A stretch of DNA of 64,000 nucleotides from Eledone cirrhosa. Taxonomy: Eukaryota. Below the pieces are notes generated by a model. The model worked only from the letters and a program-made list of their open reading frames with translations. It made no database searches and was not told the origin of the DNA. The stretch spans positions 54,126,001-54,190,000 of the forward strand of contig OZ024745.1 of NCBI GenBank assembly GCA_964016885.1. The letters are read 5' to 3'. Below, one piece after another: positions 5,250-62,888 of the stretch (position 1 is the first letter of the stretch; every line of letters starts with the position of its first letter). Position numbers and translations under genes: made by a program.

Positions 5250-5432
5250 GAAAAAAAGATGAAATCGAAAATGCAACTGGAGTCTTATTTTAAAAAAATA
5301 TATATATTTTTTTAAATAAGACTCCAGTTGCATTTTCGATTTCATCTTTTTTTCTTTATACTTTCACTCGTGTAGGACACCTCGGTTATTTTTCATTCTG
5401 TAAATAAAAACAAAAAAAAACAAAAACCTCAC

Positions 5433-15311: not shown

Positions 15312-15780
15312 CGTACTAAGAGTGAGAAATTTCATTCCATTTCAATCTTTTCCATTTATCGTTTCCGGTACGCCCGGCCGACTAACTCACTCGATATGCA
15401 AATTAGGCTGCTCAGCCGTTAATATGCATAAGGAAAGTATATACTTTCAAACGTTCATTCATCTGACAGGAAGGAATACGATGCTGACGATAGCTAATAA
15501 GCTTGAAACTAATTCATCGTTCTTTTGTCAGTGTTGAACAAAAGGGCGACGATGGTTGCTGAACACTGTACGGCTTAATTCGGGCTGTTTGTTTACAAAC
15601 AACCCGAACATTATAATAAATGTTCGGTAAACCCATACGTACATATATATGTGTGCAGGTATGCATATATATACATACTACTGTACGTCTGTATACATAT
15701 ATGTATGTACGTATACATACTTACATTTAAGTATCAGCCGTACTAAGAGTGAGAAATGAAATTTCATTTCATTCCTTTCC

Positions 15781-16042: not shown

Positions 16043-16240
16043 CGAAGGAAATGTGGTAAGGAACAAGGTGGACCATAACGCACCAAAGTACTCAATACTT
16101 AGGGTAGTAGAATGGGTAATAGGAACGAGTAGGACCACGACGGCTGAGCTCAAGCCGTTTCGACGGCTAATTCTGGACTAGTCCAGAATTAGCCGTCGAA
16201 ACGGCTTGAGCTCAGCCGTCGGGGTCCTACTCGTTCCTAT
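16041..16240. mobile_element. Fold-back pLTR-like insertion with a 122-bp palindrome containing the 3' half of an HHR
   Basis: Palindrome 16119-16240 (1 mismatch) centred on ggactagtcc. Each arm has GAAA cggct tgagctc agccg TC. Flanked by (TA)n. Confidence 0.75.
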
Positions 16241-16667: not shown

Positions 16668-17178
16668 TGGAAAAAATGAAACGAAATTTCATTTCTCACT
16701 CTTAGTACGGCTGTTACTTAAATATAAGTATGTATACGTACATACATATATGTATACAGACGTACAGTAGTATGTATATATATACATACATGCACATATA
16801 TATATATATACGTATGGATTTACCGAACATTTATTATAATGCTCGGTTTGTTTGTAAACAAACATCCCGAATTAAGCCGTACAGTGTTTAGCAACCATCG
16901 TCGCCCATTTGTTCAACACTGACAAAGAAACGATGTACTAGTTTCAAGCTTATTAGCTATCGTCAGCACCGTATACCTTCCTGCCAGATGTTTCAACGTC
17001 TGAAAGTATATACTTTCCTTATGCATATTAACGGCTTTGTTTACAAACAAACAGAGCATTATAATAAATGTTCGGTAAATCCATACGTACATATATATAT
17101 ATGTTCATGTATGTATATATATATATACATACTACTGACGTCTGTATACATATATGTCTGTACGTATACATACTTTTA
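16668..17178 (-). mobile_element. Second copy of the 427-bp HHR element, with its own fold-back arm
   Basis: 16668-17036 is the reverse complement of about 15414-15782, and 17037-17178 is a direct copy of its distal part. Confidence 0.85.
16930..16972 (-). ncRNA. Hammerhead ribozyme (intact-looking, GUA site)
   Basis: Reverse complement: acggtg CTGACGA t agct aata agct t GAAA ctag TA catcgt; ACTAGT palindrome. Confidence 0.8.
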
Positions 17179-17491: not shown

Positions 17492-20400
17492 CCTGGTGTG
17501 TCAGGGAGAGGCATGTACCTCTGTAGGGGGGTGGGGTAGCCATGACCTTTTCAGGCCAGCTTGTCCTGCATTGGGTCCCACCTGACACTCAGCTCTCACC
17601 TGTGCCCCAAGAAGCTGTAGCATGCGACAGCGGCCACACCCTGGTAAACCGCCTTGGCTGGCAGGCCGAACCAGGTTGAGGGTAGCCGGCCGGGTCTGAA
17701 ACCCCCCCCCGCTGAGTTAGATAGGGAATGCCCACCCCTGCATGCGAAAACTGGACCCGACGGAGTGAGTGGAGGAGGACATCATCGTCCCAACGGTCAC
17801 GAAGGCGGCGACAGCAAGCGGTGTGGAGCGCTAGGGCACGGCAAGGCACTACAGACGTTGTGGCCATCCACTGCAGCCAAGGAAGTCCCTGGTCGTGACG
17901 GTTCTCCGTACCACCGGATTCTGGCTTCTGCGGCCGAGTGAGTGGGACCGTCACTGTGCACTGGCCCTTCCACTATAAACCTTTCCCGCACAGGTTTCTT
18001 CTTTTAGTCTGCACTCCCAAAGCCCTGCAAAGATGGGCGAGAGGCGGAGGTAAAACAGGTGGAGGTAACCTCAGGGAGTTGCCAGTCTCAAACCTACACG
18101 TGGGCGGCCTGGATGCGCAAGTCGTTCTCGTCCTGACCCTGGGATGACAGAGGAGATCATGTATTCCACCGGGCGACTGAGCAGCCCTTTTCAGGGGAGC
18201 ACTGCTCACCCTCGCACGAGGGTTGGGGCGATAAAAGGAGCCCTAACCAAATGCTCGTCCCACACAAAGCCGGCCAGTCTACCGCGGCTGGTGGTTTTAC
18301 ACATAAGCGGCCGAAAGAACATAATAGAAAGAAGAACTTGATTCTTAGCGCATGGAACGTGCGCACCATCATGGATAGGGAAACCTCCTTGAGGCCAGAG
18401 AGAAGAACTGCCCTCATAGCAAGGGAATTAGCTCGCTACCGGATCAACATAACCGCCCTCATCGAGACTAGACTTGCCGAAGAAGGATCAGTAGCAGAAA
18501 CGAAAGGAGGCTACATCTTCTTCTGGAAGGGCAATGCAAAGGACGAGGACAGAAACCACGGGGTAGCCCTGACCATCAGGACTTCATTCTGCAAGCAGCT
18601 ACCAGACCTCCCAACACCTGTGAGGGAGCGGCTGATGAAGTTCCGCTTCCCACTTGACCCATTTCGGCATGTCACAGTCATCAGCGCGTACTCTCACTCT
18701 CACCAGCAGCGATGAAGCAAAGGACGCTTTCTACGGGGAACTCAACGCACTCGTGAAGGGCGTCCCCTCAAGCGATAAACTCATCCTACTGGGGGACTTC
18801 AACGCAAGAGTCGGGTCTGACAGCAGCAACTGGAGAAGCGTGCTGGGACCACTACAACACAGGAAAGCTGAACTCTAACGGCCTCATACTGTTGAGTTTC
18901 TGCGCCGAGAACGACCAGACCATCACCAGCACACTGTTCCGCCAGGCAGACTAATTGACTTTGCCATATGCCGCAGGAGGGACATCCGTGGACCATGTGT
19001 CGTGCAGAGTGTTGGACCGACCATCGCCTTGTCAGGACCATCCCATCAATGCACATCACCCCGACGCCTCGCAAGACTCCGAAAGTCTGTAGGCCAGCTT
19101 TCGACGTCACACGACTCAAGCAGCCAGAGCATCGTGATGCGTTCGCGGAAGACCTGGACGGCCGGCTGCCCATGGACCACTGACCGGACCTCCAACTCAA
19201 CAGTGGGACCAGTTCAGGTCGCTAGTGACAGAGTCAGCCAAGGCAACCATCGGGCCAAGGAAAAGAGTCCACCAGGACTGGTTTGATGAAAACGATGAGC
19301 GCATCAGACAACTCCTGGACGTGAAGAGGAGGGCTTTCATTGAGTGGCAGAATGACAGCTCTTCCACCTCGTATCCCAACCGCTTCAAGCACATCCAGCG
19401 GCAGACCCAAGCAGCGCTACGCAGAATGCAGGACAAGTGGTGGGAAAAGAAGGCCGAAGAAGTCGAGAGATACGCTGACACAAAGAACTCCAAAGTGTTC
19501 TTCAGCGCCATCGGGGACGTCTACGGACGCCCCAACCCTGTCACCACACCGCTGCTGTCTGCTGACGGCTCGATCCTGCTGAAGGAGAAGAGCAGCATAA
19601 ACTCGAGGTGGAGAGAGAGCACTTCAGTAACCTGCTCAACAGGCCTCCACTGTCCACCCTGCCGCCCTAGACCAGGTCCCACAGAAGCCCGTGGTCGGCA
19701 GCATCGACCCCCCCCCCCACGTTGGAAGTCACGAAGGCAATCAAACAGTCATGCTCAACCGCCTCATTGCCAACATCTCGGAGGACAACCTGCCTGAGGC
19801 CTAGTGTGGGTTCCGCCGAAATCGCAGCACGATCAACATGATCTTCTCTGTACGCCAGGTACAGGAGAAGTGTGTCGAGCAGAACATGGACCTCTTTGCC
19901 GTCTTCATAGACTTGACGAAGGCATTCGACACTGTCAACAGGGAGGCCCTCTGGTCGATCCTGTCGAAATTTGGATGCCCAATAAAGTTTGTGAACCTGA
20001 TACGGCAATTCCATGACGACGTGACTGGGCAGGTGTGCTCGGGCGGAGAGGCATCGAACCCGTTCGGAATCACCAACGGCGTCAAGCAAGGATGCGTGCT
20101 GGCTCCCGTCCTCTTCAACCTGTTCCTCACCTGCGTGCTCAGTCATGCCGCCAGGGACCTCGAGCACGGAGTGTATGTGCGATACAGACTGCACGGCTCC
20201 CTGTTTGACCTGCGGCGCGTGACGGCCAAGACTAGGACCGTGCAGAGGATCGTCCCGGAGGCACTTTTTGCTGACGACTGTGCCCTCATGGCCCACAGGG
20301 AGTCTGACCTCCAACTCATCGTCAACAAGTTCGCGGAGGCCTTCTGCCTCTTCGGTCTCACATTTAGCCCTGGCAAGACTGAGGTCCTATTCCAGCCTGC

Positions 20401-21044
20401 ACCTGAATCCGTCGCCCACCCTCCTTCAATCTCCATCGGAGGCACCCAGCTAAAGACGGTGGACGACTTCAAGTACCTCAGCAGCGATGAAAGCCTCGAG
20501 AAGGAGATAAACGCCAGAATCTGCAAGGCCAGTCAAGCCCTCGGCCGCCTGAGGATACGCGTCCTGAACCAGCACAACATCAGGAAGTCCACCAAGCTCA
20601 AGGTGTACAGGGCCGTTGTTCTCACCAGCCTCCTCTACGGATGTGAGACATAGACCCTGTACAGAAGGCACCTGAAGCAGCTGAAACGGTTCCACATGCG
20701 CAATGGGAAACGAAAGCGGGGCAGGCCTCTCAAGAGGTTCAAAGACTGCGTGAAGCCCAGTATCAACAACACTGGAATCGCTCCAAAACAACTCGAATCT
20801 GATGCTCAGGACAGGACTGAGTGGCGAGCCCTTACCAGACGCGCCAAAGACTCTTTTGAAGAGAAGAGACGGGCAGAGGTCACTGAGGCTCGTGAAAGGA
20901 GGAGAAAGGTATCAACAGCTGCCCCAAGCGACTCCTGTCCCTGGACCTGCAAGTCAAGGATCGGCTTCCACAGCCATATTCATGCCCATGGCAGACGGGA
21001 ACTAAAGTAAAGATGTCATCATCGTTTACGATGGACAACCAAGA
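17492..21044 (+). mobile_element. RTE-clade (BovB-like) LINE, near full length, GC-rich, decayed
   Basis: APE endonuclease (AWNVRT..RPERRTALIARELARY, LGDFNARVG, WTDHRLV) and RT (FIDLTKAFDTV, GVKQGCVLAP, LFADDCAL). It has a long 5' UTR, frameshifts and two internal deletions, and ends at (TA)n. Confidence 0.92.
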
Positions 21045-21047
21045 ATA

Positions 21048-21150
<103 letters not shown>

Positions 21151-21299
21151 ATACTTTGGGAGGGTCATGTTGCCAATAAGAAACACACGCACCAATTGCT
21201 TTCACTTCAATTTATTATAATAAATTTATAATAAATTTATAAATTTATAAATTTCTGGTTGGTTGGTTGGTTTCACAACCAGATAGTTGTTTATATATT

Positions 21300-21342
21300 G
21301 TCATAGTCCTTTCGTCACACACTCTGTGACCTCTTCAGTGAC
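21300..21342 (-). ncRNA. Minimal hammerhead ribozyme (inverted pLTR)
   Basis: Reverse complement: gtca CTGAAGA g gtcaca gagtg tgtgac GAAA ggac TA tgac. Confidence 0.8.
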
Positions 21343-21631
21343 TGGGGATTCCTTTCTTTGTTTCTGTGCCTCTCCTTTGTTCTGTCCTACGCCATTTTGT
21401 TTCTGTGTGTGTGTTGTGTGCTCAGTCTGCGCATGCGCCACATCCGGGTGTCTGTGTGTGTTTATGTTCATTTATTTATTTGTTTATTTACATGTTGCTG
21501 GTTGGTTGTTTGTTCTATGTGTGTGTGTGTTTTCATTTTGTCCTTAATTGTAAGTTGTGATGTTGCTGTTCCACTCATATTTTCTATTTAATTTTGGTTG
21601 TAATTCTTTTATGTTTATTGCCTCTTTTATG

Positions 21632-22678
21632 TTAAAGTGGCTTAAGCAGATAAAGCTAAATCAGGATACTATAGAGAATACCAATAGATATCCCAACAAA
21701 ATTGACGATATAAATATGGCCGACACCTCATTAACAGATGAGTTCAACAACAACAACAACACAAATATATAGGGAAACACAATAATAGATAATGATGAGT
21801 TATCTGTGTTGTGTTTACCCCCGAAATTTGCGACATTCAAGAAGGTAAATATGATTAGTTGTCTGTCAGAAATAGAAAAATCATTTACAAAACTACGCTG
21901 GAGCCTCAAAAACAAAAACAAAAACAAAAGCAACAATATACGCACACGCATATACAACACACATCCCAACAACAACAGACACACAGACACAAACAACAAT
22001 AACAACAACACACACACCAACAACAACAACAATAACAACATACCCAGAAACAACAACAACAGACACGCAGACACAAACAACAATAACAACACACACAACA
22101 ACAATAACACACACGGAGACAACAACAACACACATCAACAACAGCACACATCAACAACAACAACACACACACATTCAATGCCTCTCACCACCACCACAAT
22201 CTTAACAAACACACAGACACAGAAAACAAGTAATGACAGTAGCACAGAAATCACAGAAATAAGGGAAAGTAATAGGATTAAAAGGAGAAGGGAGACTAAG
22301 GACAAAGAAAATAACCAAGACGAACACACAGACACACAAAATAGGGTAGATAACAACAATGAGCCAGTGGAAAGAGACAGGAGTAATTATGAGAGACATA
22401 GAAACAACCATGAGGCTGTTGGTGGAAATAGAAATAGAAACAACACAACTAACAATAACAATAGCACTAGTACACATAAAGCAGCAACCTGGAACTCTAC
22501 GTTTTATAATCCCTCCGATAAATCGTTCGACCTGCGACGAGTCCACGCCACGACTTTACCGTTTAACAAACGCACGCAATTGCCGTAGCAGGTCGATGAA
22601 CAAACAGAAGCACAATTTAGTATAGCTAGATCCGAACTTAGAAATATTATAGAACAGTATAGCAAGAAGTATAATAGA
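21632..22678 (+). pseudogene. N-terminal part of the PLE ORF, in frame with 22679-24874 but broken by two TAG codons
   Basis: Same frame throughout, with TAG at 21770-21772 and 22586-22588. PLE N-terminal motifs LCLPPKFA, EIEKSFTKLRW and FDLRRVHATTLPFNKR, plus an Asn/Thr/His-rich insert. Confidence 0.8.
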
Positions 22679-24874
22679 ATGGAGGCCCAGCAACTGGGAG
22701 AAAAATCTGCAAATGGCTTGCGTAAGCTCATGCAGCGCTCGCGTAATGGAGAGATAGCATGCTTTCCAACAGACAAGTCTGGCAGAATGTCGGTTGACAG
22801 CCTGCCAAACTACATCCAGGCAATGCAACCCCACATCACTAACACAAGAGAGGTAACACCACAGGAGCATGAGGATAGAGAAAAAGCCCTCAATGCCCAT
22901 ATGGTGATGTGGACGAATATAATGCAGCCCAACAAAAGGACTGTCAACAACTTCCAGGCCTGGAACAATGACGTGCCGGCGTTGTATGGGCTTCGAAAAG
23001 AGCATAAAACGGGCAGTGACCCTGTCGCGGGACCATCAACACGGCCAGTCAGTGGAGCTAACATTGCTAGTAAATACAGACTGTCTTACTTCCTCTCCCT
23101 GATCATACGCCCCATCATTGAAATGTCCCCAGATGTATGTGACAGCACGGAGGACCTCCTCAGCAGAATCGGCGTGAGTAACCGATCTAGGGACCTAACA
23201 AACTGCATAATAGGCAGTATGGATGTTGTGTCCCTGTATCCATCTATTGACGTGGATTTTGCTGTGAAGAAATGCGTAGAAATGATCAGTGAGAGCAAGG
23301 TTGAGTTCCGTGGGATTGATACCAGTGAGCTGGGACTCCTACTTAAACTTACCTATAGTAATAATTACCTAGACACATATGACCTTAGCAACCTGTGCCC
23401 TACAAGACCAGCAAGAGGCAGACAACCTACCATTACCTCAATGGCCAAGAAAACCCACACAGATAGATGGAACGGGTGGACCAGAGCCATACGGACACCC
23501 GAAAACCACGATGAACTGAAGAAAATGATTGCACATGCGGTAGGGGCCAGCATAAAACTAACCCTTAAGGAACATATGTTCAAATTTAATGGAAAAACAT
23601 ATGGCCAAGAGGAAGGAGCAGCCATTGGTGTTAGCATTGCAGGCGACATAGCTAACTTATTCATGGTATGGTGGGACAGTAGACTTAAACTTAAACTTAA
23701 TGAACAATTAGAAGACCCCTTAACCCTGATAATGTACTCCCGCTACGTTGATGATATAAACATCGTAGTTAAGATACCCCCACTAGAGAACAGTCAGGAA
23801 CTAGAGAAAAACACAATGGAAAGCATCCAGCAAATAGCAAACTCCATCCACCAGAACATTAGAGTTACTATAGACTACCCAAGTAAACACCCCAACCATC
23901 GATTACCTGTACTAGACACAGAGCTCTGGTTAGATACCGTTAACAACAAAAAACAAATCCTCCATTCCCATTATGCCAAACCCATGACTTCCAAACATCT
24001 GATCCACCGAAACTCGGCCGTTTCGGACCATACCAAAATCAACATACTGATTGCGGATTTGGTACGGGTGATGAGAAATGTGTCCCGCATGTGCAACCCC
24101 GAAGAACTAGAGAGACACATGCAACACTTCATCCACCGTATGCAGTTCTCTGGCTACAATCAGAGAGATAAAATCAGAGTGTATAGAGGAGCCAGAACCA
24201 AATGGGAAAAAATGGTAAATAATGACATAAATGGGACCTGCCCCTTGTATAGGAGAAAATTTTGGAATAGAATAGAAAGAACTAGGAACAAGGCTAATAG
24301 AATAAACTCATGGTATGATAGCAATAAATACCAGAGTGTAATGTTCATCGATACAACCCCTAGAGGTGAATTAGCTTACAAATTTAGAAGGGCCCTAAAT
24401 AAACATAAACTCAATATTAAGATAGTAGAAAGACCAGGTACCTCCGTAAAAACACTTATTAGCAAGACATACCCTTTTCAAAGACCCTCATGTATAGATA
24501 AAAAATGTATAACCTGTAAAATAAGCCCCCATATTAACTGTAAAACTAGAAATGTAGTGTATAGCATAAGATGTACTGAAGGACAATGTAGAGACAAAAA
24601 TATAGTGTACATAGGTGAGACAGCTCGTAATGTAAGGGAACGGATAAATCAACACTGGCGAGACCTTCAGGATAGTAAAGAATCATCTGTACTCTACCAA
24701 CATGCTAAAATAGAACACAAGGGTAAATTAGAGAACATAGAAATAAAAATAGAATCTACACACAGAAAAGACGCAATGTTTAGACAAATTACAGAGGCAA
24801 TAAACATAAAAGAATTACAACCAAAATTAAATAGAAAATATGAGTGGAACAGCAACATCACAACTTACAATTAA
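22679..24874 (+). CDS. PLE reverse transcriptase + C-terminal GIY-YIG endonuclease (731-aa open frame)
   Basis: TDKSGR, MDVVSLYPSI, EGAAIGVSIAGDIANLFMVWWD, RYVDD, LPVLD, CIDKKCITC and VVYSIRC..YIGETARNVRERINQH..H...H..E..LN. Confidence 0.93.
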   Translation: MEAQQLGEKSANGLRKLMQRSRNGEIACFPTDKSGRMSVDSLPNYIQAMQPHITNTREVTPQEHEDREKALNAHMVMWTNIMQPNKRTVNNFQAWNNDVPALYGLRKEHKTGSDPVAGPSTRPVSGANIASKYRLSYFLSLIIRPIIEMSPDVCDSTEDLLSRIGVSNRSRDLTNCIIGSMDVVSLYPSIDVDFAVKKCVEMISESKVEFRGIDTSELGLLLKLTYSNNYLDTYDLSNLCPTRPARGRQPTITSMAKKTHTDRWNGWTRAIRTPENHDELKKMIAHAVGASIKLTLKEHMFKFNGKTYGQEEGAAIGVSIAGDIANLFMVWWDSRLKLKLNEQLEDPLTLIMYSRYVDDINIVVKIPPLENSQELEKNTMESIQQIANSIHQNIRVTIDYPSKHPNHRLPVLDTELWLDTVNNKKQILHSHYAKPMTSKHLIHRNSAVSDHTKINILIADLVRVMRNVSRMCNPEELERHMQHFIHRMQFSGYNQRDKIRVYRGARTKWEKMVNNDINGTCPLYRRKFWNRIERTRNKANRINSWYDSNKYQSVMFIDTTPRGELAYKFRRALNKHKLNIKIVERPGTSVKTLISKTYPFQRPSCIDKKCITCKISPHINCKTRNVVYSIRCTEGQCRDKNIVYIGETARNVRERINQHWRDLQDSKESSVLYQHAKIEHKGKLENIEIKIESTHRKDAMFRQITEAINIKELQPKLNRKYEWNSNITTYN

Positions 24875-25075
24875 GGACAAAATGAAAACACACACACACA
24901 TAGAACAAACAACCAACCAGCAACATGTAAATAAACAAATAAATAAATGAACATAAACACACACAGACACCCGGATGTGGCGCATGCGCAGACTGAGCAC
25001 ACAACACACACACAGAAACAAAATGGCGTAGGACAGAACAAAGGAGAGGCACAGAAACAAAGAAAGGAATCCCCA

Positions 25076-25118
25076 GTCACTGAAGAGGTCACATAGTGTG
25101 TGACGAAAGAACTATGAC
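25076..25118 (+). ncRNA. Minimal hammerhead ribozyme (3' pLTR)
   Basis: gtca CTGAAGA g gtcaca tagtg tgtgac GAAA gaac TA tgac. Confidence 0.8.
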
Positions 25119-25329
25119 AATATATAAACAACTATCTGGTTGTGGAACCAACCAACTAACCAGAAATTTATAAATTTATAAATTTATTATAAATTTATTA
25201 TAATAAATTGAAGTGAAAGCAATTGGTGCGTGTGTTTCTTATTGGCAACATGACCCTCCCAAAGTATAACAATATCGGTTTCAACACACGATTTCAGATA
25301 AAGAATCTTGCTAAACAAATTCAGAAACG

Positions 25330-25402
<73 letters not shown>

Positions 25403-28623: not shown

Positions 28624-28875
28624 TATTGTGTTGTTTATTATGTAATTAATGACTCTGCACACTACATTGAGCAATCTTCATTCCTTTACCTTGTCTACAG
28701 AAATACTTAACATATATATATCTGTATGTATAATATATATATATATCGATTCGTCTGAAGAAAACGTGTAAGGTGGTGACTATATAACTAATTTGCATTT
28801 TTGACATGTGTATAATGAATTAGATAATAAAATGAAGATGTATGAGTAAAAGCGTCTCTCTTATATATATATATA

Positions 28876-29230
28876 TATTGTTATACTTTGGGAGGGTCAT
28901 GTTGCCAATAAAAACACAGGCACCTGTTGGTTTTCGCTTCATTTTATTATAAAATTCCGGTTGGCTGGTTGGTTCGATAACCGGAACGTTGTTTATATAT
29001 ATATATTGTCAAAGCTCTTTCGTCACACATTCTGTGACCTCCTAGGTGACTAGGTTTTTATTTTGTGTTATCGAACCAACCAACCAAATTTATAATAAAT
29101 TGAAGTGAGAACCAACAGGTGCGTGTGTTTTTATTGGCAACATGACCCTCCCTAAGAATAACAATATCTGTTTCAACATACTTTTTCAGATAAGAAATTT
29201 CGCAAAACAAAACAAATTGCTAAACAAATA
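28876..29230. mobile_element. ORF-less fold-back of Naiad-like pLTR
   Basis: Inverted arm 28876-29067 (degenerate HHR at 29008-29050 on the minus strand) and direct arm 29068-29230, both homologous to the 21145-25332 termini. Confidence 0.85.
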
Positions 29231-29413
29231 TATATATATATATATTTGTTTAGTAATTTGTTTTGTTTTGCGAAATGTATATATATATAAAGACAAACAT
29301 AGAATATTCGAAAATATTCTGTATGTTTATAATAAACATTTTGAAGACCCAATCGCTATAGAATAGAATACGTCACGTATTACAATTTGAGATTCTCGAT
29401 AAAAGTAAGGGAA

Positions 29414-29456
29414 GTAATCTACGCGTTTCATTCTTGTTAGAAATCTTCAGGATTAT
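29414..29456 (-). ncRNA. Hammerhead ribozyme
   Basis: Inverted copy of 29858-29900. Confidence 0.8.
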
Positions 29457-29857
29457 ATATCCAATACTTTTATCGAGAACGACACAGCTAGAGACTTATA
29501 GAATACTTAGCTGTGTACAGGAACTGGTTTGATAGAGCGGTAGCCGGTCCGGCAGAAATTAGAATTTGGATTTAATGCTCTGAAATAGCGATATATATGT
29601 GAAGACAAACATAGAATATTCGAAAATATTCTGTATGTTTATAATAAACATTTTGAAGACCCAATCGCTATAGAATAGAATACGTTACGTATTACAATTT
29701 GAGATTCTCGATAAAAGTAAGGGCATTAAATCAGAGCATTAAATCCAAATTCTAATTTCTGCCGGACCGGCTACCGCTCTATCAAACCAGTTCCTGTACA
29801 CAGCTAAGTATTCTATAAGTCTCTAGCTGTGTCGTTCTCGATAAAAGTATTGGATAT

Positions 29858-29900
29858 GTAATCCTGAAGATTTCTAACAAGAATGAAACGCGTAGATTAC
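29858..29900 (+). ncRNA. Hammerhead ribozyme (type I, GUA site, U.U at base of stem II)
   Basis: gtaatc CTGAAGA t ttct aaca agaa t GAAA cgcg TA gattac. The flanking ttctcgataaaagta/tacttttatcgagaa forms a 15-bp helix. Confidence 0.85.
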
Positions 29901-30084
29901 TTCCCTTACTTTTATCGAGAATCTCAAATTGTAATACGTGACGTATTCTATTCTATAGCGATTGGGTCTTCAAAATGTTTATTATAAACATACAGGATAT
30001 TTTCGAATATTCTATGTTTGTCTTCACATATATATCGCTATTTCAGAGCATTAAATCCAAATATATATATATATTTGTTTAGCA

Positions 30085-30126
<42 letters not shown>

Positions 30127-30255
30127 GTGAGGTTTTTTTACAAAATGAAAAATAACCGAGGTGTCCTACACGAATGAAAGTATAAAGAAAAAAAGATGAA
30201 ATCGAAAATGCAACTGGAGTCTTATTTCTAAAAAAATATATATATTTATTTGGTT

Positions 30256-30293
30256 CCTTTACCGGTTTCGCAGTTCTTCTGCTTTTCAAAAGT
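30256..30293 (-). ncRNA. Minimal hammerhead ribozyme, U3-A8 core
   Basis: Reverse complement: ctt TTGAAAA gcag aagaa ctgc GAAA ccgg TA aag. Confidence 0.75.
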
Positions 30294-31078
30294 AGAGTTG
30301 AGATGGAGGGTCTGTGGTTTTTCTCACATCTGGTTGGTCTTAGAATGTTACTTGTTTTCTATGGAAAAAAGTGGCTCGAAACACCAGGTTTTTAGAGAAG
30401 TAACTTGATTGGTTGGTCAATAAGTATAACAAATTTCGGGCCAATTCGCGTAACTAAGTTCTTCAAACAAGGTGGGGGGGGGGGGGGTCAGGTTGTTTTT
30501 TTCATATATAGTGAAGTTTTGTTGGTTGATGCAGTCACGAGAATAAGCACGCCAGTTTGTTTGAATTTCTTTTTACTTAAAAAAGAGGCTCACGTAGGCT
30601 TTTTTTAAATAAATGTAATTTGATTGGTTATAAATGAAATTATGGCTGTCACGTGAACAAGTTCATTAAATTTGGGAATTTATTTTGTAGCCTTTTAGAG
30701 AATTTTATGACAAACAAAAGATAATAGTCAAGAGAAATGGGATGGTGGGAATTGTTCTGGTTCAGTGAATATGGCAGGTTGTTTTTTTCATATATGAGTG
30801 AAGTTACGTGAATAAGCAGATCAGCTTTCACGTCAGTTTGTTTGAATTTCTTTTTACTTTAAAAAAGTGGCTCACGAAGGCTTTTTTTAAATAAATGTAA
30901 TTTGATTGGTTATAAATGAAATTATGACTGTCACGTAAACAAGTTCATTAAATTTCGCGCCCGTATTTGGGAATTTATTTTGTAGCCTTTCAGAGAATTT
31001 TATGACAAACAAAAGATAATGGTCAAGAGAAATGGGATGGAAGAATTTTTCTGGTTCAGTGAATATGGCTGGTTCGCT

Positions 31079-31138
<60 letters not shown>

Positions 31139-32721
31139 AGAATTCAGACTTTCTATTGTAATAAAGAAAATAGAGATATGTATCTTTATTTGTGTGCTTG
31201 TGTGTGTGTGTGTGTGTGTGTATAGGAAGATGATTCTATTAGTAGAAATGGGGGAGGGAGTTGTGTGTGTGTGTGTATATGGGTGTTATGTGTGTGTGTG
31301 TGTGTGTGTGTCTGTGGGAGTATGTTAAGATGGAGAGAATATATATATTTTGTGTGTGTGTATGTTTGTAGGAAAGTGATTCTATTAGTAGAAATGGGGG
31401 AGGGAGTTGTGTGTATGTGTGTGGGGTGTTATGTGTGTGTGTATGGATGTTATGTGTGTGTGGGGGTATGGTTAGCATGTTAAGATGAAGAGAATATATA
31501 TTTTGTGTGTGGGGGGGGGGAGATTCGGTTAGTAGAAATATTTTTGAATGAACATATTTTCCTTATTTATTCGTATTTGTTCTGTTGTATTGTCAGCGCA
31601 AACGTATGTTAAGGTTTATTTAGTTCGGGTTTTTATTTTATAAAGTAGAAGGTGTTATGTGTGTGTGTATGTGTCTGTTTGGATGGTTAGCATGTTATGG
31701 TGTTGACATAATGTATATTAAACCATATTTAATGCTGGTCTATATTTTTGAATAAACATATTTTCCTTATTTATTCGTATTTGTTCTGTTGTATTGTCAG
31801 CGCAAAGGTAAAATGGGAAGACTTGGAATTTGGGTGTCTTATTAGTTGCGCATATGTCTAGATGCGCGCTTAGTGGTATCTGTCTCGTGGTTGGATCTCG
31901 TAATTGTTGGCGATGAACTGTCATTCTGTTTCTGAGTGTGAGTTTAGTTTGTCCTATATAATCTTCATTGCATTCTTAACATTTAATGGCATAAACTAGA
32001 TTTTTTTATGAGCAAGTGAAGTGATTTTTTACAGCAAAATTTTGTCCTGATTGAAATGTATACGTGTTGCCTTCAATGAGGCGAGTGCAGGTTCCCCAAT
32101 TACAGCGACCACATTTTTTTACAGTTGGTTGTGGGTTTGTGGTAGGTAATTTGGCATTGGTGAGTAATGTTTTCAGTGATTTCGGTTGTCTTTTGCTTTT
32201 GATTATTTTGTGTGTTTCAAGGGCTTTTTTCATTCTTGGGTCTTGTTTCAATAGTGGGATGTTCTTGTGAATAGTGTTGTAAGCTTCCGCATTTCCTGGG
32301 TTGCGTGTTGAGATATATGATAGAATATTGGATGTACCTTGAATTTGTTTCTGTTTTCGTAATTCCTCAATGCCTATTGCTTTAGACCTTTTTATTCCAT
32401 TATTTATTAGTAATGGTGGGTACTGTCTTTCGTGTAGAATTTCCTTTAATTCTTGAAGTCTTGTATTTCGCGTTTCATAATTGGGGACAATTGTGCAAAT
32501 TCTTCTTGCTAGGTTAAAAGGAATGTTCGTCTTCGTGTGCTTTGGATGGTTGGATGTGAATAGCAGGTATTGTTTGGAATCTGTTGGTTTGTAGTGTATG
32601 AGCAACCAATCAAATTACTTCTCTAAAAACCTGGCGTTTCGAGCCACGTTTTTCCATATAAAACAAGTAACATTCTAAGACCATATGTGAGAAAAACCAC
32701 AGACCCTCCATCTCAACTCTA

Positions 32722-32758
32722 CTTTTGAAAAGCAGAAGAACAGCGAAACCGGTAAAGG
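32722..32758 (+). ncRNA. Minimal hammerhead ribozyme, U3-A8 core (one stem II mismatch)
   Basis: ctt TTGAAAA gcag aagaa cagc GAAA ccgg TA aag. Confidence 0.7.
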
Positions 32759-32816
32759 AACCAAATAAATATATATATTTAAAAAAAATAAGACTCCAGT
32801 TGTACTTTCGATTTCA

Positions 32817-32919
<103 letters not shown>

Positions 32920-33017: not shown

Positions 33018-33138
33018 TTATATATATATATACACACATACACCCCCACCCCACCCACAGACACACACATATATATGTGTGTATGTAGAGAAATATATAT
33101 AAAAAGAACAAACCGTTCAAACTTGTTTATTTAAAATA

Positions 33139-33178
33139 GCACCTACGTACGTTTCGCCCGAAAGGGCTTCTCAAGGGC
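33139..33178 (-). ncRNA. Minimal hammerhead ribozyme, U3-A8 core
   Basis: Reverse complement: gccc TTGAGAA gccc tttc gggc GAAA cgtacg TA ggtgc. Confidence 0.75.
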
Positions 33179-33553
33179 ATACAAACTAAAAAGCGTTCCT
33201 TACATGACCCGGAATGGGTTTTTAGAAATAAGTTCACGTCACAGTTCATTCTTTGTAACAAAACATGTATTGATTTTGCAGTAGGTCAATGGAGATAACT
33301 CTAACCAGTGTTAGAGCATCAATTCTCCATGTGACTTTTTATCCGTCATTTCTTTGTAGTTGCAGCTTTACTATTGTCGATACGCACAGGATCAGGTAGG
33401 CAACGTTATTTTCCAGATGTTTGTTTGCTGCGACTGCCCGCCTGGATGGATTTGTGCCTGATCTGGGATGAATGGTTAGTTTCCGGATGTTTTTTGCAGC
33501 GCCTGCACGTCGCCGTGTTGAAATTTGGTGCAGGGCGATCCGGTTACGGTTTT

Positions 33554-36085
33554 TTACTCCCCATTCTTATTCCATCTGGAGAAGGATATTTTTAAGCGGT
33601 GTGTACAGCTTATCGTCGTTTCTGCTCTGCTGTTGATGAGCTCGTGGGGTGCCGTTATGATGTGGTAAAGCTCCATGATGCAAAGCTCACACTTTCTCTT
33701 GAAATTATACGGTGCTGCTCTGCCGACAATTTCCCAGTGCGTGGAGAATCTGATGTTTGAGTCGTTTAATGCTGTGATGTAGTTCGCGAGCGAAGTGGAG
33801 TGTCTTAGTTTCTTGTTTGCGAAAGAGTGAAGATGTGTTAGAAATCTATTTTTGAAAGGGCCAGAGGTAGCCCCTATATAATGTTTAACGCTATTATGGC
33901 TAGTTACGGTGCACCTATAAATAATCCTATCAGTCAGGCAGTTACCCCTAAAGGGGCAGCTTCCCCTGTCACGGCAGTTGCAATTTCGGTCGCGGTCCCT
34001 TCTAGTTCTCAAGGTAAGGATATTATTATTGCTATCTATGTTGTTACCTATGTCCCTACACCTGTCGTTGGTACCATTATAGCCCACCACGTGCGGGGTA
34101 GTACCATTATCATTCCGCACGCAGCAGCGTCTTCTGTTGCCGTCCGGTGACCCGTGCGAGTCACCTGCATATTCCCCAGTCATGTCGCGGTTATGTTGGT
34201 TGCGACTGTAGTGGCTGTTGCCAGCACTATTGGGTGTTGCTAGGGAGTCGTCCGGGCCGATATAGTTGTTGTCAAGTGTAGGTGTATCGGTGCTAAGGTG
34301 CTGTGTCTTGGTGATCTTACTGTGATTAGTTGTTCCTATGATGTCTGCTAGGTTAGGAGTAGTAGAGAAGGATATTTCTATATTGTTCCTATTCAGGATT
34401 TTGGGGTGGGAAGTTCTTCTCTAAAGCTTTGAAGAATATCCGTGGTATGTCGGAGGCCACACTCCGAGAGTAGGGAGGATGGAACCATAAGACGTTACGG
34501 TGACGATTCCGTGTCTTTGTACGTTTGCTAAGGGTTGTGCTAACGGGGTGACCGTTCTTATGCATGTTATTGTGCTGTAGCCCGTTACGTGTCCCTTTCG
34601 CTTTATGCTCGGGTGCACTCGTATTTTTTCTGCTACGTTTATGTATAGGAAGACGCTGGTTGGAAGGCGTTGGTAGTAGGCCATCGCCTTCGTTGATCTT
34701 ATAGTAGGGGAATAATTCAAGTAGGCTACAGTGATCACTGTCACCGAGGTCGTGATCCTTATTGTGTGGTAAGCTACCAATACTATCGCTAGTGTAATTA
34801 ACAATATGGCCGTGTTCCCTAGTGCGATTTTCTATACTATTATATCTGTCTCTTTCAAAGCCGCCGCACGTTCGGTTATAGGTATGGCTTACTATAACGT
34901 TAGTCTTATGAGAGGGATGGTTTCTGGAGCTAGCATTAGGGATGTAAGAGATTCTTCGGTTAAACCCGGCGCTTATCAAGGCCTTATTGTAGTAATCTGC
35001 CGCTTGGTTGAAGACATCCTCATTGGCGGAGAGCCTCGAGATCCTATGTGAGATGCTATAAACTATGGAGTTGAGAGTCTGCTTAGGGTGGTTTGAGGCA
35101 TAATTAATATACGAAAGGCTCTCTTCAGGCTTATGGTATGGCTTGTATAGGCCCGTACTCAACTCCAGGGTCACGTCCAGGAAATTGACCACCTGGTGGT
35201 TGAGGTCCATAGTTACGGATAGGCCGTATGACTTGAAGAACCTGTGTATGTGCTTGTTTAGTTTCTCTATTCTACGGGGGCTATGGTTCCTAACGGTAAA
35301 CAGGGCGTCGTCCCTATACACACCTACTTGTAGGGCCGGTATCTCGTCCCTAAGCTTATGGAGGAGGTATATTCCGACAGCTCGGTTGCCTGCGCCGAAT
35401 CACTGGACCCCATCGTGATATCGAAGTTATCAGGATGGTTGGTTCGGGTCCAGTGGGAACCTTCGAACTGGATAATGGTTCTACGCGCCGCTAGGACTAT
35501 ATCTATCTCTTTTTTAGTGAGGCTAGTGTTAGATTTAGCTAGGATAAGTGACTTATTTAAGAGTATAGGGGAGATAGAAGCGTAGTCACTATCTATGTCA
35601 AACTGAATGAACTTCGAGGTCACTTTATCAGGCAACTCGATGAACCAATCAATGACCTGGTCGGTGTTGCTCCAGAGGCAGACCTTAGCTTTTCTATTAA
35701 GCTCCAGTAGTACTCTATCTAGGATCACTTTACTAATCTTACCTATGTCGGATGCAGAGGGACATATTAGTCTAATAGAGGGGCTTTCATTAAAGTTACA
35801 TTTGTGATCCTTAAGAGAGAATCTAGGCGTCAGAGGGACATACGGGTTTGTATACTTATCTATTTCTAAGCTAGTGACTATATCCTTCCCTACTCTATTT
35901 ATGTCATTTAAGGTACTAATGGGTGTCTTTTTGTAGTCTTTGTGTAGTTCTTTATAAATGAATTGTTTATACTTTCTCGTGTCTATCTTATACAGCTTCT
36001 TGGTTTTGTCAGAGGTGACGAAGAGGTGTGGGTCATTCTTGATCTTGGTGATGAGTGCATCCAGTGACGTTAAGAATGGATTACT
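33554..36085 (-). pseudogene. PLE RT + GIY-YIG, 5'-truncated, frameshifted near 35370 and 34395
   Basis: ORF pieces 35324-35728, 34389-35321 and 33554-34183 are collinear. Confidence 0.88.
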
Positions 36086-36659
36086 TTACCACATGAGTGC
36101 ATCCAGGGATATTAAGAATGGATTACTTTACCACATGAGTGCATCCAGGGATGTTAAGAATGCATCACTTTACCACATCATAACGGCACCCCACGAGCTC
36201 ATCAACAGCAGAGCAGAAACGACGATAAGCTGTACACACCGCTTAAAAATATCCTTCTCCAGATGGAATAAGAATGGGGAGTAAAAAACCGTAACCGGGT
36301 CGCCCTGCACCAAATTTCAACACGGCGACGTGCAGGCACTGCAAAAAACATCCGGAAACTAACCATGCATCCCAGACCAGGCACAAATCCACCCAGGCGG
36401 GCAGGCACAGCAAACAAACATCTGGAAAATAACGTTGCCTACCTGATCCTGTGCGTATCGACAATAGTAAAGCTGCAACTGCAAAGAAATGACGGATAAA
36501 AAGTCGCATGGAGAATTGATGCTCTAACACTGGTTAGAGTTATCTCCCTTGACCTACTGCGAAATCAATACATGTTTTGTTACAAAGAATGAACTGTGAC
36601 GTGAACTTATTTCTAAAAACCCATTCTGGGTCATGTAAGGAACGCTTTTTAGTTTGTAT

Positions 36660-36699
36660 GCCCTTGAGAAGCCCTTCCGGGCGAAACGTACGTAGGTGC
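36660..36699 (+). ncRNA. Minimal hammerhead ribozyme, U3-A8 core
   Basis: gccc TTGAGAA gccc ttcc gggc GAAA cgtacg TA ggtgc; ACGTACGT palindrome. Confidence 0.75.
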
Positions 36700-37563
36700 T
36701 ATTTTAAATAAACATGTTTTAACGGTTTGTTCTCCTTTATATATATTTCTCCACGTGTATCCGCTCTGCTGATTTTCTCGCCCACTAGATATTAACACTT
36801 CTAATATTTAACACTGCAGGCACACGCATTGAGCACCCTTTGCATATGCTATTGGCAAATAACTACATGTATCGCCTATTTCTTCTTCTTCTTCTCTCTC
36901 TTGATACTTAATTACTCCATATGTGTGTATGTATGTATACATGTAATTGACACTGCAATAATAAGACTATTAAATAAATTCGAATTGCAGCACATCGGAA
37001 TAAAAGGGAAGATGGAATGGACGCATCCGGAATGTCATTGGTAATAAGTTTACGCGATCAGGTTTGACCTGGTGCTAAGCGACAGTAATATTTAAGTTTG
37101 TGTCGGGCGTGTGTTGAAATTGATTGAATCGACTAGATCCACTACTTGCAAATTTGTTGCCTTGTGCTAATGCTAAAAATCAATACTGACCATCTGAAGC
37201 AGAAGCAAATTAAAATGGTTACAATGGCCATTTGAAAACTATTCAAAGAAGCAGTCGACTATAGGTATAACTCAATACAAAACACCTGCCGGATTATCCA
37301 ATTTATCATTACATACCATAGAATTTCTACGAACCCATTCACAATACAGGTGACATTTTTCTCTGCGTTTAAACCTGGCAGTAAATATATTTTTAAATAC
37401 ATTCAGTTATAATTTCTTTCTACTTGTTTCAGACATTGGAATGTGGCCATTCTGGTGTAACGCTTTCACAAAATGTAGTCAAGTCTCTCTTTCTCTCCCC
37501 TCCCCCTCTCTCTCACTCTCTCTCTCGCAAACACACTCACAATCTCTCTCTCTCTATATATAT

Positions 37564-47246: not shown

Positions 47247-48899
47247 TGACGTCATATTCCTTCTTAGAGAGTAACGAAAAGAATGGGTATGCATGTAAAG
47301 ACGCTGCTTGAATCTATTGGCGGTTAACCCTATATAGGCCCTACGGGACGTGGGTGTTTCAACCTTACATTTGTAGATAATATTACTAGAGAGGCAGGAA
47401 ATGCCTCTCTAGTAACATTGTCTACAAATGTAAGGTTGAAACACCCACGTCTCGTAGGGCCTACATAGGGTTAACCGCCAATAGATTCAAGCAGCGTTTT
47501 TACATGCATACCAATTCTTTTCGTTACCCTCTAAGAAGGAATATGACGTCACTTTCAGCTTCTATCTGGAGTCTAAAAGACAACCACACCCAATATAAGT
47601 TACACTGGGAGATCCTAGCTAGGGCTAGATCGTATAACGGAAATAAAAGACCATGTGACCTCTGCGCCGCTGAGGCGCTGGAAATATTCTACGCCACAGA
47701 CCACATCTTAAACAAACAATCTGAGGCAATTTCGGCTTGTAAACATAAATTGCACAAAACTTTCCTGTATTACAGCCCCACATTATACCCTAACGCATAG
47801 TGCGATCTATACGCGGATATTTTACGTCTTGATGTGGTAGCTAAGTATATGTTATGTTTATACCATTACTTATTTGCATAGGTAAGTATATATTACCTGT
47901 ATGTTTTGTGAAGGTACGTATACTTTCTCGTACGTATATTTGATTGTATATGTTATGGCGTATATTTTAAATATTCTGGTACATATGCTTTTGGTTATGT
48001 GTATACGTGAGTTTTGCGTCTGTATGAGTATGCGGGTTCGTACGTATGTAGGGTGTGTGTATATGTGTACTTCGTGTTATGGTTGACGTACGTCTCCGAA
48101 AATATGTGCATTTACATGTAGGTACGTGTGTGCGCTTGTTATATACGTATTTATTTATTTATATACGTATTTATTTATTTATATACGTTTATTTAATTAT
48201 TTGTATACACGCACACACACACACATTCTTATATGTGCGTGTATTTGTATACTTATGGCCAGTGTTTTCGCGTATGCTTGTGTATGTGCGTATTTGGATG
48301 CGTGTATGTATTTATTTAATTTCAATTATCTCTGTATCTTATTTACTTTATTCTTAGCTCTGAAGCAGAGAATCATTCGGTTTCCGAGTTAGAATTTTAG
48401 TCTACGACTTCAGTTATACCATTTACGTGGTTTTGTCTTTGCGTGCAACTGTTCTCCACGCTCCACATATGACGTATTATCTTCGTTTTTTCCGTTCATT
48501 GCCAGAGAACGTCTCTATGAACCACCTAAGGGAATATTATACCACACTCTTTTATACCATAAACGTGGTTTTGTCTTTGCGTGTAATTGTTTTTCACCGC
48601 TCCAAATAATGACGTATTATATTCGTTTTTTCCCGTTCTTTGCCAGGGAACGTTTCAACGAACCAACGTATCGTCTTCCTGTCTTCCTCCGGTTGCAACG
48701 TTTTTTGAAATCTTCACTTCTGCGTTCACAGATTGACTTTGTTAGTTTCAGAAGATCCCGTTAAGGGTGAAAGCAGCGATTCTTTGCTTAAACTTTAATC
48801 TGTTATTTTAATAAATATTTGCTCTACGGTTCTTATATATTTGATATATTTATCCTTATCGAGCCCTCTTTGGATTTTAGTCTTAAAATTTATTATTAT

Positions 48900-55317: not shown

Positions 55318-55686
<369 letters not shown>

Positions 55687-59738: not shown

Positions 59739-59920
59739 AGGGGGTGTAACTAGGAGTTACTGCAGGTTCACCCGGGTGAGCACTCGATGTTTAGGTTCAC
59801 TTCTGTGATGATGTGTAGAGCTATACAGAGTGTAATATATAGAGAGGATAAAAAGGACGATTGATTATTCCTATGAAGGAATAATCAATCGTCCTTTTAT
59901 ATATATATATATATATATAT

Positions 59921-59961
<41 letters not shown>

Positions 59962-60015
59962 CTCCGATACCATCAACACTATAAACACAGAGCTGGCATA
60001 TCTAAGAATTGACTA

Positions 60016-60071
60016 ACTGCCTGATGAGGTCATAGCCATTCAATGGTTATCATCGAAATATATATAGCAGT
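60016..60071 (+). ncRNA. Canonical-core hammerhead ribozyme in a solo insertion (59960-60115) between (TA)n tracts
   Basis: actgc CTGATGA ggt c atagccatt c aatggttat c atc GAAA tatata TA gcagt, followed by aataaa. Confidence 0.85.
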
Positions 60072-60112
60072 AAATAAAGGATTATGAGTTCATGCAATTG
60101 ACTTATGTTTCT

Positions 60113-60187
<75 letters not shown>

Positions 60188-62098: not shown

Positions 62099-62888
<790 letters not shown>

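What the first reader, a model, noticed from the sequence alone, without database searches (positions are those of the whole stretch)
29290..30062. 312-nt circularly permuted, highly structured HHR unit: candidate retrozyme / circular RNA integrated as a fold-back
Seen: both arms are longer-than-unit, differently permuted copies of one 312-bp unit with no ORF. The HHR has a perfect 6-bp stem I extended across an internal loop by a 15-bp helix. Further hairpins include acacagcta/tagctgtgt, aatacgt.acgtatt, and agaatatt ttcg aatattct (intact in the left arm). The left arm starts 8 nt downstream of the predicted GUA cut. Known: retrozymes make HHR-processed circRNAs. Inference: reverse transcription around a circular or multimeric RNA by a PLE RT, primed from both (TA)n strands. 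This is the best candidate in the window for an undescribed viroid-like retro-RNA family.
Basis: partly seen in the sequence, partly recalled or inferred. Interest (0 to 1): 0.85.

Follow-up and report, generated by a model that had tools for sequence, protein, structure and literature searches.

The report
Hammerhead retrozyme insertion, Penelope-type fold-back
A 312-base non-coding repeat carrying a predicted self-cutting hammerhead RNA sits as two back-to-back, longer-than-unit copies in a TA microsatellite of what is probably an octopus genome, likely pasted in by Penelope-type retrotransposon enzymes; it is a new family of a known kind of element (animal retrozymes), and an RNA circle is not shown.

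Summary
Two inverted arms (434 and 332 nt) are copies of one 312-nt non-coding unit with a type I hammerhead. The unit is a multi-copy head-to-tail family in three coded public data sets. One contig closes as an exact 312-nt cycle, but that run's kind is unknown.

This fits the described animal non-LTR retrozymes. The 'permutation' is not random: it is the standard Penelope-like (PLE) insertion pattern of an inverted 5'-truncated copy, a 27-38 nt tail at one end only, and a (TA)n target. A coding PLE and a pLTR remnant nearby have the same layout, and the left junction recurs in relatives.

The two arms join almost seamlessly into one 2.5-unit RNA that begins 8 nt after a ribozyme cut. This favours twin priming on a partly cut linear multimer over rolling around a circle, but only weakly. 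'Viroid-like' is not supported: there is a ribozyme on one strand only and a genomic DNA stage. Cleavage, expression and circles are untested. I found no cephalopod retrozyme in the papers searched. Verdict: new member of a known kind.

The parts
29290..29723 (-). Left, inverted arm: 434 nt, u9 through one whole unit to u130; no tail; ends at the unit's internal (UA)4 tract, which runs into target (TA)n
29420..29450 (-). Type I hammerhead core of the left arm, read through uncut; stem I 5 bp because of a private G>A
29723..29732 (+). Central junction: 10-nt slip copy of u154-u163 (same as 29736-29745), sharing 1 nt with the left arm and 2 nt with the right arm
   Evidence: sequence
29731..30062 (+). 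Right arm: 332 nt, u149 through one whole unit to u168; 20-nt terminal redundancy
29835..29921 (+). Hammerhead domain rod: 15-bp helix (29835-29849/29907-29921), 3-bp GGA/UCC helix, 6-bp stem I (29858-29863/29895-29900)
   Evidence: U-A to C-G change at 29848/29908 in all 4 runs laid
29864..29894 (+). Type I hammerhead core: CUGANGA box, 4-bp stem II on a U-U pair with a tetraloop, GAAA, palindromic ACGCGU stem III, GUA; predicted cut after 29894
   Evidence: the only core change listed in relatives is position 7, to the canonical U
30025..30062 (+). PLE-type 'tail' (u131-u168; 38 nt, or 27 nt counted from u141), present on the right arm only; begins at the internal (UA)4 tract (30028-30035)
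   Evidence: tail defined in PMC8557442 and PMC11167929; (AT)n loose ends behind 30035 in organism A
29228..29289 (.). Left target side: (AT)n, a 31-nt inverted copy (29246-29276) of the neighbouring element's end (29197-29227), then (TA)6
30061..30120 (.). Right target side: (AT)7 plus 14 nt (30075-30088) repeating 29246-29259 at 13 of 14 (a perfect inverted copy of 29214-29241), then (AT)n; either a templated insert or a partly deleted target duplication

Best explanation
This is one young insertion of a 312-nt non-coding, hammerhead-bearing tandem family (a non-LTR retrozyme), likely copied into a break in a (TA)n microsatellite by the reverse transcriptase and endonuclease of a Penelope-like element, with both broken DNA ends likely priming on one partly self-cut linear multimeric RNA. 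SHOWN: the unit, the two arms, the ribozyme motif, the lack of an ORF, head-to-tail multi-copy relatives, and the PLE-type ends. INFERRED: (1) genomic tandem arrays are transcribed into multimers; (2) the hammerhead has a 1-bp palindromic stem III, so it would cut well only as a dimer and would leave many internal sites uncut; (3) a PLE protein nicks both strands of (TA)n; (4) one end primes at u168, the tail end, and copies 332 nt; (5) the other end pairs with the (UA)4 tract at u134-141, just upstream of where the first cDNA stopped (u149), and copies 434 nt to within 8 nt of a ribozyme-made 5' end; (6) the two cDNAs are joined with a short slip and 1-2 nt of microhomology. The locus itself is probably a dead end: each arm holds only one whole ribozyme, and a read-through transcript would fold into a ~300-bp hairpin.
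For: Period 312, no ORF, hammerhead in both arms. Family: 526 of 17.1 M contigs (X1), 2,580 of 17.6 M (X4), 9,057 of 12.5 M reads (X21) and 1 of 1.3 M contigs (X5) lay on the unit; the joint 30042 to 29731, 'goes back 312', is seen in X1, X4 and X5. (AT)n follows u141 in 7 contigs of X1 and 274 reads of X21, at a depth of about 3,980. The same layout (inverted arm without tail, forward arm with tail, (TA)n on both sides) occurs in the coding PLE at 21146-25331 and the remnant at 28862-29245. PLE inverted copy, 30-40 bp tail and (TA)n bias: PMC8557442. A PLE protein in vitro cuts and extends both strands, starts at two internal sites that define the tail, and uses mainly uncut RNA: PMC11167929. 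Dimer-dependent hammerheads and multimeric RNAs in axolotl retrozymes: PMC7229834. The arms tile one RNA with a 7-18 nt gap (chance about 6%) and start 8 nt from a cut (about 3%). Twin priming gives an inversion with an internal deletion: PMC2837659.
Against: One insertion only, and both chance figures were computed after seeing the data. The right arm stopping 20 nt past its own start is equally natural on a circle. All passes are identical apart from 3 private changes, whereas organism A's family is polymorphic at several sites, which suits a single circular molecule or a very young array. In the coding PLE nearby the forward piece appears to start inside the ORF, so adjacency of the two arms is not the rule. 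Twin and dual priming cannot be told apart from sequence (PMC2837659). No helper PLE with a homologous pLTR was found in the window. Structure conservation is suggestive but not significant overall: p = 0.06-0.17 in four tests, and 5 of 19 changes at paired sites break a pair. Cleavage is untested; 8 of 9 Xenopus dimers tested in vitro did not cut.
Confidence: 0.55

Rival explanations
1. Same element and same PLE enzymes, but the template was a covalently closed 312-nt circle (or two circles) that the reverse transcriptase went round 1.06 and 1.39 times from the two DNA ends.
For: Both arms exceed one unit and cross an intact cut site. The right arm ends 20 nt after meeting its own start. All passes are near identical. 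X5 holds a single 342-nt contig = 312 + 30 overlap, a closed cycle. Coral, mussel and axolotl retrozymes accumulate as circles (PMC7229834).
Against: A circle has no 5' end, so the left arm's stop at u9 needs a structural stall or a 3% chance. The weak stem III predicts poor monomer release. The X5 cycle would arise equally from tandem DNA or multimeric RNA, and the run kind is not on record.
Confidence: 0.3
2. The unit is an internally repeated part of the pLTR of a coding PLE, and both arms are short 5'-truncated 3' ends of that autonomous element.
For: The ends are entirely PLE-like. Short fold-backs of PLE ends are common in this window. Retrozymes are proposed to derive from pLTRs. Contigs laid are short, and 180 loose ends were not shown.
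Against: The ribozyme-to-ribozyme period is 312 nt with no ORF. The share of contigs running on into unlike sequence is listed as 0 for X1, X4 and X5; the loose ends shown for these runs are unit variants or (AT)n; the X5 contig closes on itself. No homology to the window's pLTRs. Helix sizes (I 6 bp, II 4 bp) match the canonical tandem-repeat hammerhead, not the minimal PLE type (PMC4209133).
Confidence: 0.08
3. A DNA-level product: a piece of a satellite array copied in during break repair or fold-back synthesis at a fragile (TA)n site, with no RNA step; or an assembly artefact.
For: Flank-templated inverted pieces on both sides show DNA-templated fold-back at this site. No run laid shows this exact locus, since flanks were not in the reference.
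Against: The right arm holds 38 nt (u131-168) absent from the left arm's 3' end and carries independent point changes, so it is not a fold-back copy of the left. The u141-(AT)n junction recurs in other copies. The polarity matches the coding PLE nearby.
Confidence: 0.05
4. An infectious or self-replicating viroid-like RNA (RNA-to-RNA rolling circle) captured by accident.
For: Size, low coding capacity and a significant fold on both strands.
Against: No CUGANGA core on the opposite strand. Only 57% paired and branched. Multi-copy family in a genomic RAD library (X21) with fixed differences between organisms. No match in metagenome or viral contigs, though these collections are a poor test for RNA agents.
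Confidence: 0.02

Closest known systems
Metazoan non-LTR retrozymes (Cervera and de la Pena 2020, PMC7229834; parts 2-4 of 6 read, supplement unreadable)
   Same: Head-to-tail non-coding unit of 170-400 nt, GC under 50%, one type I hammerhead per unit, self-paired predicted fold, PLEs in the same genome. Stem III is like axolotl HHR_Amex1 (1 bp plus palindromic tetraloop), and the U-U base of stem II is like HHR_Amex2.
   Different: The host is likely an octopod; 'octopus' and 'cephalopod' occur 0 times in that paper's main text. This copy is an inverted pair with PLE tail and (TA)n junctions; 'inverted' and 'microsatellite' also occur 0 times there. Cleavage and circles were shown for coral, mussel and axolotl but are untested here.
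Retrozymes as non-autonomous PLE derivatives (Li, Clavereau and Pollet 2026, bioRxiv 10.64898/2026.07.22.740005; parts 1-3 of 5 read, supplements closed)
   Same: Proposes PLE origin and PLE mobilisation; unit sizes average about 313-363 bp in several classes; monomers are dispersed.
   Different: Their evidence is co-occurrence and pLTR phylogeny in 35 genomes (31 vertebrates, 3 insects, 1 coral). In the parts read they do not analyse insertion junctions. Here the link is junction anatomy, and no homologous pLTR was found. This locus fails their 'active' definition of two consecutive complete ribozymes.
Penelope-like elements (Craig et al. 2021, PMC8557442, passages; Frangieh et al. 2024, PMC11167929, parts 1-2 of 4; Cervera and de la Pena 2014, PMC4209133, parts 1-2 of 4)
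   Same: Partial tandem, inverted 5'-truncated copy, 30-40 bp tail at one end, AT-rich or (TA)n target, type I hammerhead near the 3' end.
   Different: No RT-GIY-YIG ORF; the monomer is 312 nt, not about 3 kb; the hammerhead has canonical helix sizes and an extended stem I.
L1 twin or dual priming (PMC2837659, passages)
   Same: Inverted 5' part, small internal deletion, microhomology at the target junctions.
   Different: No poly(A) tail; both primers start inside the RNA; the template is a tandem multimer.

Membership tests
Non-LTR retrozyme | Head-to-tail non-coding repeat of about 170-400 nt | tested here: met
   Period 312, longest open frame 56 codons; 'goes back 312' joints in X1, X4, X5
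Non-LTR retrozyme | Type I hammerhead motif in the unit | tested here: met
   Core and stems present in both arms; core kept in relatives, position 7 mostly canonical U; Rfam match weak
Non-LTR retrozyme | GC under 50% and a stable self-paired predicted fold | tested here: met
   34% GC; z -4.1 as a circle, 57% paired; prediction only
Non-LTR retrozyme | No LTRs, primer-binding site or polypurine tract | tested here: inconclusive
   No direct terminal repeats around a distinct interior; PBS and PPT were not scanned for
Non-LTR retrozyme | Multi-copy in the genome, with autonomous PLEs present | tested here: met
   Multi-copy in organisms A and B; PLE-type ORFs in the window. Copy number in the window's own genome is unknown; no second copy in the window
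Non-LTR retrozyme | RNA self-cleavage and accumulation of linear and circular monomers | not testable with these tools
   No RNA run was listed; the X5 closed contig is of unknown run kind
'Active' retrozyme locus (Li et al. 2026 definition) | [quoted passage not shown] | tested here: not met
   Each arm holds one complete motif and they lie on opposite strands; filed as a dispersed insertion, not a source array
Penelope-like element (autonomous) | RT plus GIY-YIG ORF between pLTRs | tested here: not met
   No ORF in the unit or between the arms
PLE-type insertion pattern | Inverted 5'-truncated copy, 30-40 bp tail at one end, (TA)n target | tested here: met
   Left arm inverted and tail-less, right arm 27-38 nt longer, (TA)n on both sides; u141 junction recurrent; recurrence of the u168 end could not be tested
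PLE-type insertion pattern | Sequence homology to the pLTR of a helper PLE | tested here: inconclusive
   None within the 64-kb window; whole genome not held
Plant LTR retrozyme | Type III hammerhead in LTRs | tested here: not met
   Stem I is the open stem and stem III is a closed palindrome
Viroid or viroid-like replicon | Ribozymes in both polarities; no DNA stage | tested here: not met
   No hammerhead core on the antisense strand (other ribozyme classes only through Rfam); genomic multi-copy family
Viroid or viroid-like replicon | RNA-to-RNA replication, infectivity | not testable with these tools
   No RNA data

The most novel reading that the evidence does not exclude
Octopods make a 312-nt ribozyme-processed circular RNA, and this locus is a direct footprint of PLE reverse transcriptase rolling round that circle from both ends of one break. 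The closed 312-nt contig in run X5 would be that circle. The many genomic copies would then let the proposed but unproven retrozyme life cycle be read from junctions alone.
Probability: 0.25. Interest if true: 0.55.

Novelty: new member of a known kind. Interest (0 to 1): 0.35.

Why it matters
The kind is known, so a specialist would not be surprised by a cephalopod retrozyme. What this locus adds is junction-level evidence for how animal retrozymes move. The papers read propose PLE mobilisation from co-occurrence and pLTR phylogeny, and propose circles as templates, without showing either at insertion junctions. Here a non-coding unit carries the whole PLE signature (two start sites, tail, inverted copy, (TA)n target). 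Its short period makes circle versus linear multimer a countable question: where do 5' ends fall relative to the cut, and do the two arms abut? A young, multi-copy family with fixed differences between organisms is good material for that count, and for explaining the tandem and inverted PLE structures that PMC8557442 calls still undefined.

Tried and rejected
Whole genome: none held, so no copy number, arrays or helper PLE could be sought.

Expression: no RNA holder listed; this is no evidence either way. Sixteen of the 20 holders had shares under 0.2; only X5 of these was laid, and the other 15 are not used.

Fixed element ends in X21: about 1,500, 800 and 1,700 molecules end at 30060, 29754 and 29927, with loose letters beyond. 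I first read these as element boundaries and as a longer parent element. All three sit on AATT sites in a RAD library, so I rejected them as restriction cuts with ligated partners (inference). The u168 end is therefore untested in relatives.

Covariation statistics: p = 1.5e-7 against a uniform null is inflated by transition bias. With a transition null p = 0.07-0.17; depletion at paired sites p = 0.057-0.13; core conservation p = 0.11. The 9-of-24 count was a miscount, corrected to 10 of 25.

Rfam microRNA hits are artefacts of hairpins and microsatellites. Pfam found no family for 9 of 10 translations, including the PLE-type ORFs. Pol III box scan gave only one-mismatch hits. No match in metagenome contigs (2 patterns) or viral contigs (1 pattern). 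A pure fold-back of the left arm was rejected because the right arm extends 38 nt further.

Full report
OBSERVATION. Taking u1 as the base after the predicted GUA cut (29895 on +), the right arm is 29731-30062 (+), u149 to u312 to u168, 332 nt, with an exact 20-nt redundancy. The left arm is 29723 to 29290 (-), u9 to u312 to u130, 434 nt. The arms differ at four positions from three events. Relatives carry A at u102, so the right arm's G is private there; u46 and u276 are private to the left arm. About 0.4% divergence means a young insertion (inference). There is no ORF over 56 codons, GC is 34%, and the natural monomer folds with z = -3.8 linear and -4.1 circular against 60 shuffles; the antisense strand does as well, and 57% of bases pair. 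No other copy lies in the window.

THE RIBOZYME. It is a type I hammerhead: 6-bp stem I, CUGANGA box, 4-bp stem II on a U-U pair, GAAA, a palindromic ACGCGU stem III and GUA. A strict pattern gives 4 hits in the window (2 here, 2 in another element) and none in 200 block shuffles. Rfam sees it only weakly (HH9, 20 bits, gathering 52). Helix I of 6 bp, helix II of 4 bp and a short palindromic helix III are the canonical metazoan type, described as cutting poorly as a monomer and well as a dimer (PMC4209133). The axolotl retrozyme motifs share the weak stem III and the U-U base (PMC7229834). Cleavage is predicted, not shown.

THE FAMILY. No genome is held. A run search listed 23 runs, 20 holding part of the unit, none on record as RNA. 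I laid 4 of the 23 on the right arm at 80% likeness: 526 of 17.1 M contigs (X1, organism A), 2,580 of 17.6 M (X4, B), 9,057 of 12.5 M RAD reads (X21, A) and 1 of 1.3 M (X5, C). Most are 90-99% alike, with differences that are nearly fixed per organism, so these are sister families rather than this exact one. The joint 30042 to 29731, 'goes back 312', appears in X1, X4 and X5. The X5 contig is 342 nt, i.e. 312 plus a 30-nt overlap, which I read as a closed assembly cycle. It shows head-to-tail continuity but not whether the molecule is tandem DNA, multimeric RNA or a circle; trace genomic DNA could give the same picture. The share of contigs running on into unlike sequence is listed as 0 for the three contig sets, though contigs are short and 180 loose ends were not shown. 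Of the 40 substitution rows shown (1 more hidden), 21 are unpaired, 11 keep a pair, 3 are compensated and 5 break a pair. One two-sided change (29848/29908) is near fixed in all four runs, and position 7 of the core is mostly the canonical U. Formal tests are only suggestive (p 0.06-0.17).

THE ENDS. The left arm runs into (TA)n at the unit's internal (UA)4 tract (u134-141). The same junction recurs in organism A: 7 contigs in X1 and 274 reads in X21. The right arm goes on to u168. PLE insertions are described as partial tandems, often with an inverted 5'-truncated copy and a 30-40 bp tail at one end, with (TA)n as a frequent target in one clade (PMC8557442). A PLE protein in vitro cuts and extends both strands, starts at two internal RNA sites whose spacing is the tail, and uses mainly uncut RNA (PMC11167929). 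The window shows the pattern twice more within 8 kb: the coding element at 21146-25331 (hammerhead-like cores at 25080 + and 21338 -, inverted arm without tail, forward arm with a ~60-nt tail) and its remnant relative at 28862-29245, directly left of the finding. So the two 'permutations' are two PLE-type 3' starts plus two 5' truncations. The mass read ends in X21 fall on AATT sites and were set aside as restriction cuts, so recurrence of the u168 end is untested. On both sides the (TA)n holds short inverted copies of the left neighbour's end, from templated repair or a partly deleted target duplication.

HOST. The best named relative of the window's 761-aa PLE-type ORF is an Octopus vulgaris protein at 68% identity, against 48% for the next hit. 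An octopod host is an inference from this and from the microsatellite load. Calling this ORF a PLE rests on its RT and C-terminal GIY-YIG-like motifs as I recall them and on its hammerhead-bearing inverted repeats; Pfam gave no hit.

MECHANISM. Placed end to end, the arms read u9...u130 and then u149...u168 two units later: one RNA of 2.5 units with an inversion point and a 7-18 nt gap, starting 8 nt after a cut. That is the twin-priming pattern (PMC2837659) on a linear multimer with a ribozyme-made 5' end and two uncut internal sites, as a dimer-dependent hammerhead would give. The two coincidences have chance values of about 6% and 3%, computed after the fact on one locus. A circle explains the right arm (one turn plus 20 nt) and the homogeneity equally well, but has no 5' end to explain u9. 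Two separate RNAs cannot be excluded. I put the linear model at 0.55 and the circle at 0.30; together, about 0.85 that this is a PLE-mobilised retrozyme. A coding-PLE pLTR (0.08), a DNA-only origin (0.05) and a viroid-like replicon (0.02) are weak; the opposite strand has no hammerhead core.

COMPARISON AND NOVELTY. It works like, and meets the testable sequence criteria of, a non-LTR retrozyme (PMC7229834). It is not an autonomous PLE, not an LTR retrozyme, and not an 'active' two-ribozyme locus in the sense of bioRxiv 10.64898/2026.07.22.740005, which already argues that animal retrozymes are non-autonomous PLE derivatives. I found no cephalopod retrozyme in print. Searches: octopus + hammerhead ribozyme (5 papers, 4 listed, only the PLE paper relevant); cephalopod/ribozyme/circular RNA/retrozyme (25 of 53 listed, none with both cephalopod and retrozyme); octopus/Penelope/satellite/tandem repeat; and term counts in PMC7229834, PMC7761336 and 10.1101/2022.07.19.500677. 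Searches located the mechanism papers. Limits: the library lacks most subscription papers, repeat databases were not searched, the supplement of PMC7229834 could not be read and may list further invertebrates, and bioRxiv supplements are closed. What I saw: parts 1-3 of 5 of the 2026 preprint; parts 2-4 of 6 of PMC7229834; parts 1-2 of 4 of PMC11167929 and of PMC4209133; passages of PMC8557442, PMC2837659, PMC7761336 and the 2022 preprint. Earlier scan notes list 65 findings with the word retrozyme, including a similar sea-squirt element; these are unchecked leads and only show that the kind turns up often.

VERDICT. Real feature; new member of a known kind; interest 0.35. Its value is as a clean junction record that makes circle versus multimer testable by counting copies.

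Noticed in passing
window 21146-25331: Nearly intact PLE-type element: a 271-aa and a 761-aa frame separated by one stop, hammerhead-like cores in both the forward (25080-25114 +) and inverted (21338-21304 -) repeat, ~60-nt tail, (AT)n on both sides; best named hit an Octopus vulgaris protein at 68%. A candidate type of helper, but no homology to the 312-nt unit.
   Followed up: partly
window 15414-15639 and 16811-17090: A second hammerhead family (15484-15514 +, 16966-16936 -) with the same geometry as the finding's ribozyme (U-U base of stem II, tetraloop, 4-nt palindrome) but different sequence; 16811-17090 is itself a fold-back between (TA)-rich runs.
   Followed up: partly
window 59960-60116: A ~157-nt non-coding piece between two (TA)n runs with a canonical CUGAUGA hammerhead-like motif (60021-60066), long stem II and an AU palindrome in stem III.
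   Followed up: no
window 28862-29245: Fold-back remnant related (78-91%) to the repeat of the 21-25 kb element, with a decayed hammerhead; it is the left neighbour of the finding.
   Followed up: partly
window 30121-32820: Right neighbour: element with 223-nt inverted arms (30197-30419/32599-32816) and an ORF fragment on the minus strand; related pieces at 5258-5404 and 55318-55531. Three retroelement ends share this one (TA)n site.
   Followed up: no
window 47247-47551, 62257-62684, 16119-16240, 5258-5346, 59835-59914: Near-perfect palindromes next to (TA)n; for the first two the right side carries extra sequence before the next repeat. Fold-back insertion into (TA)n is routine in this window.
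   Followed up: no
window 33085-36754: PLE-type element on the minus strand in three frames with 587-nt inverted arms at 97% identity; no CUGANGA-type core found by the relaxed scan.
   Followed up: no
window 18137-20911: Broken LINE-type element with a Pfam RVT_1 hit at 19805-20650 (E 5e-23).
   Followed up: no
run X4 on window 29835-29921: Loose-end consensus lines of 23 and 22 contigs show a subfamily in organism B whose two arms of the 15-bp helix both differ yet still pair by eye; linkage on one molecule is not shown.
   Followed up: partly
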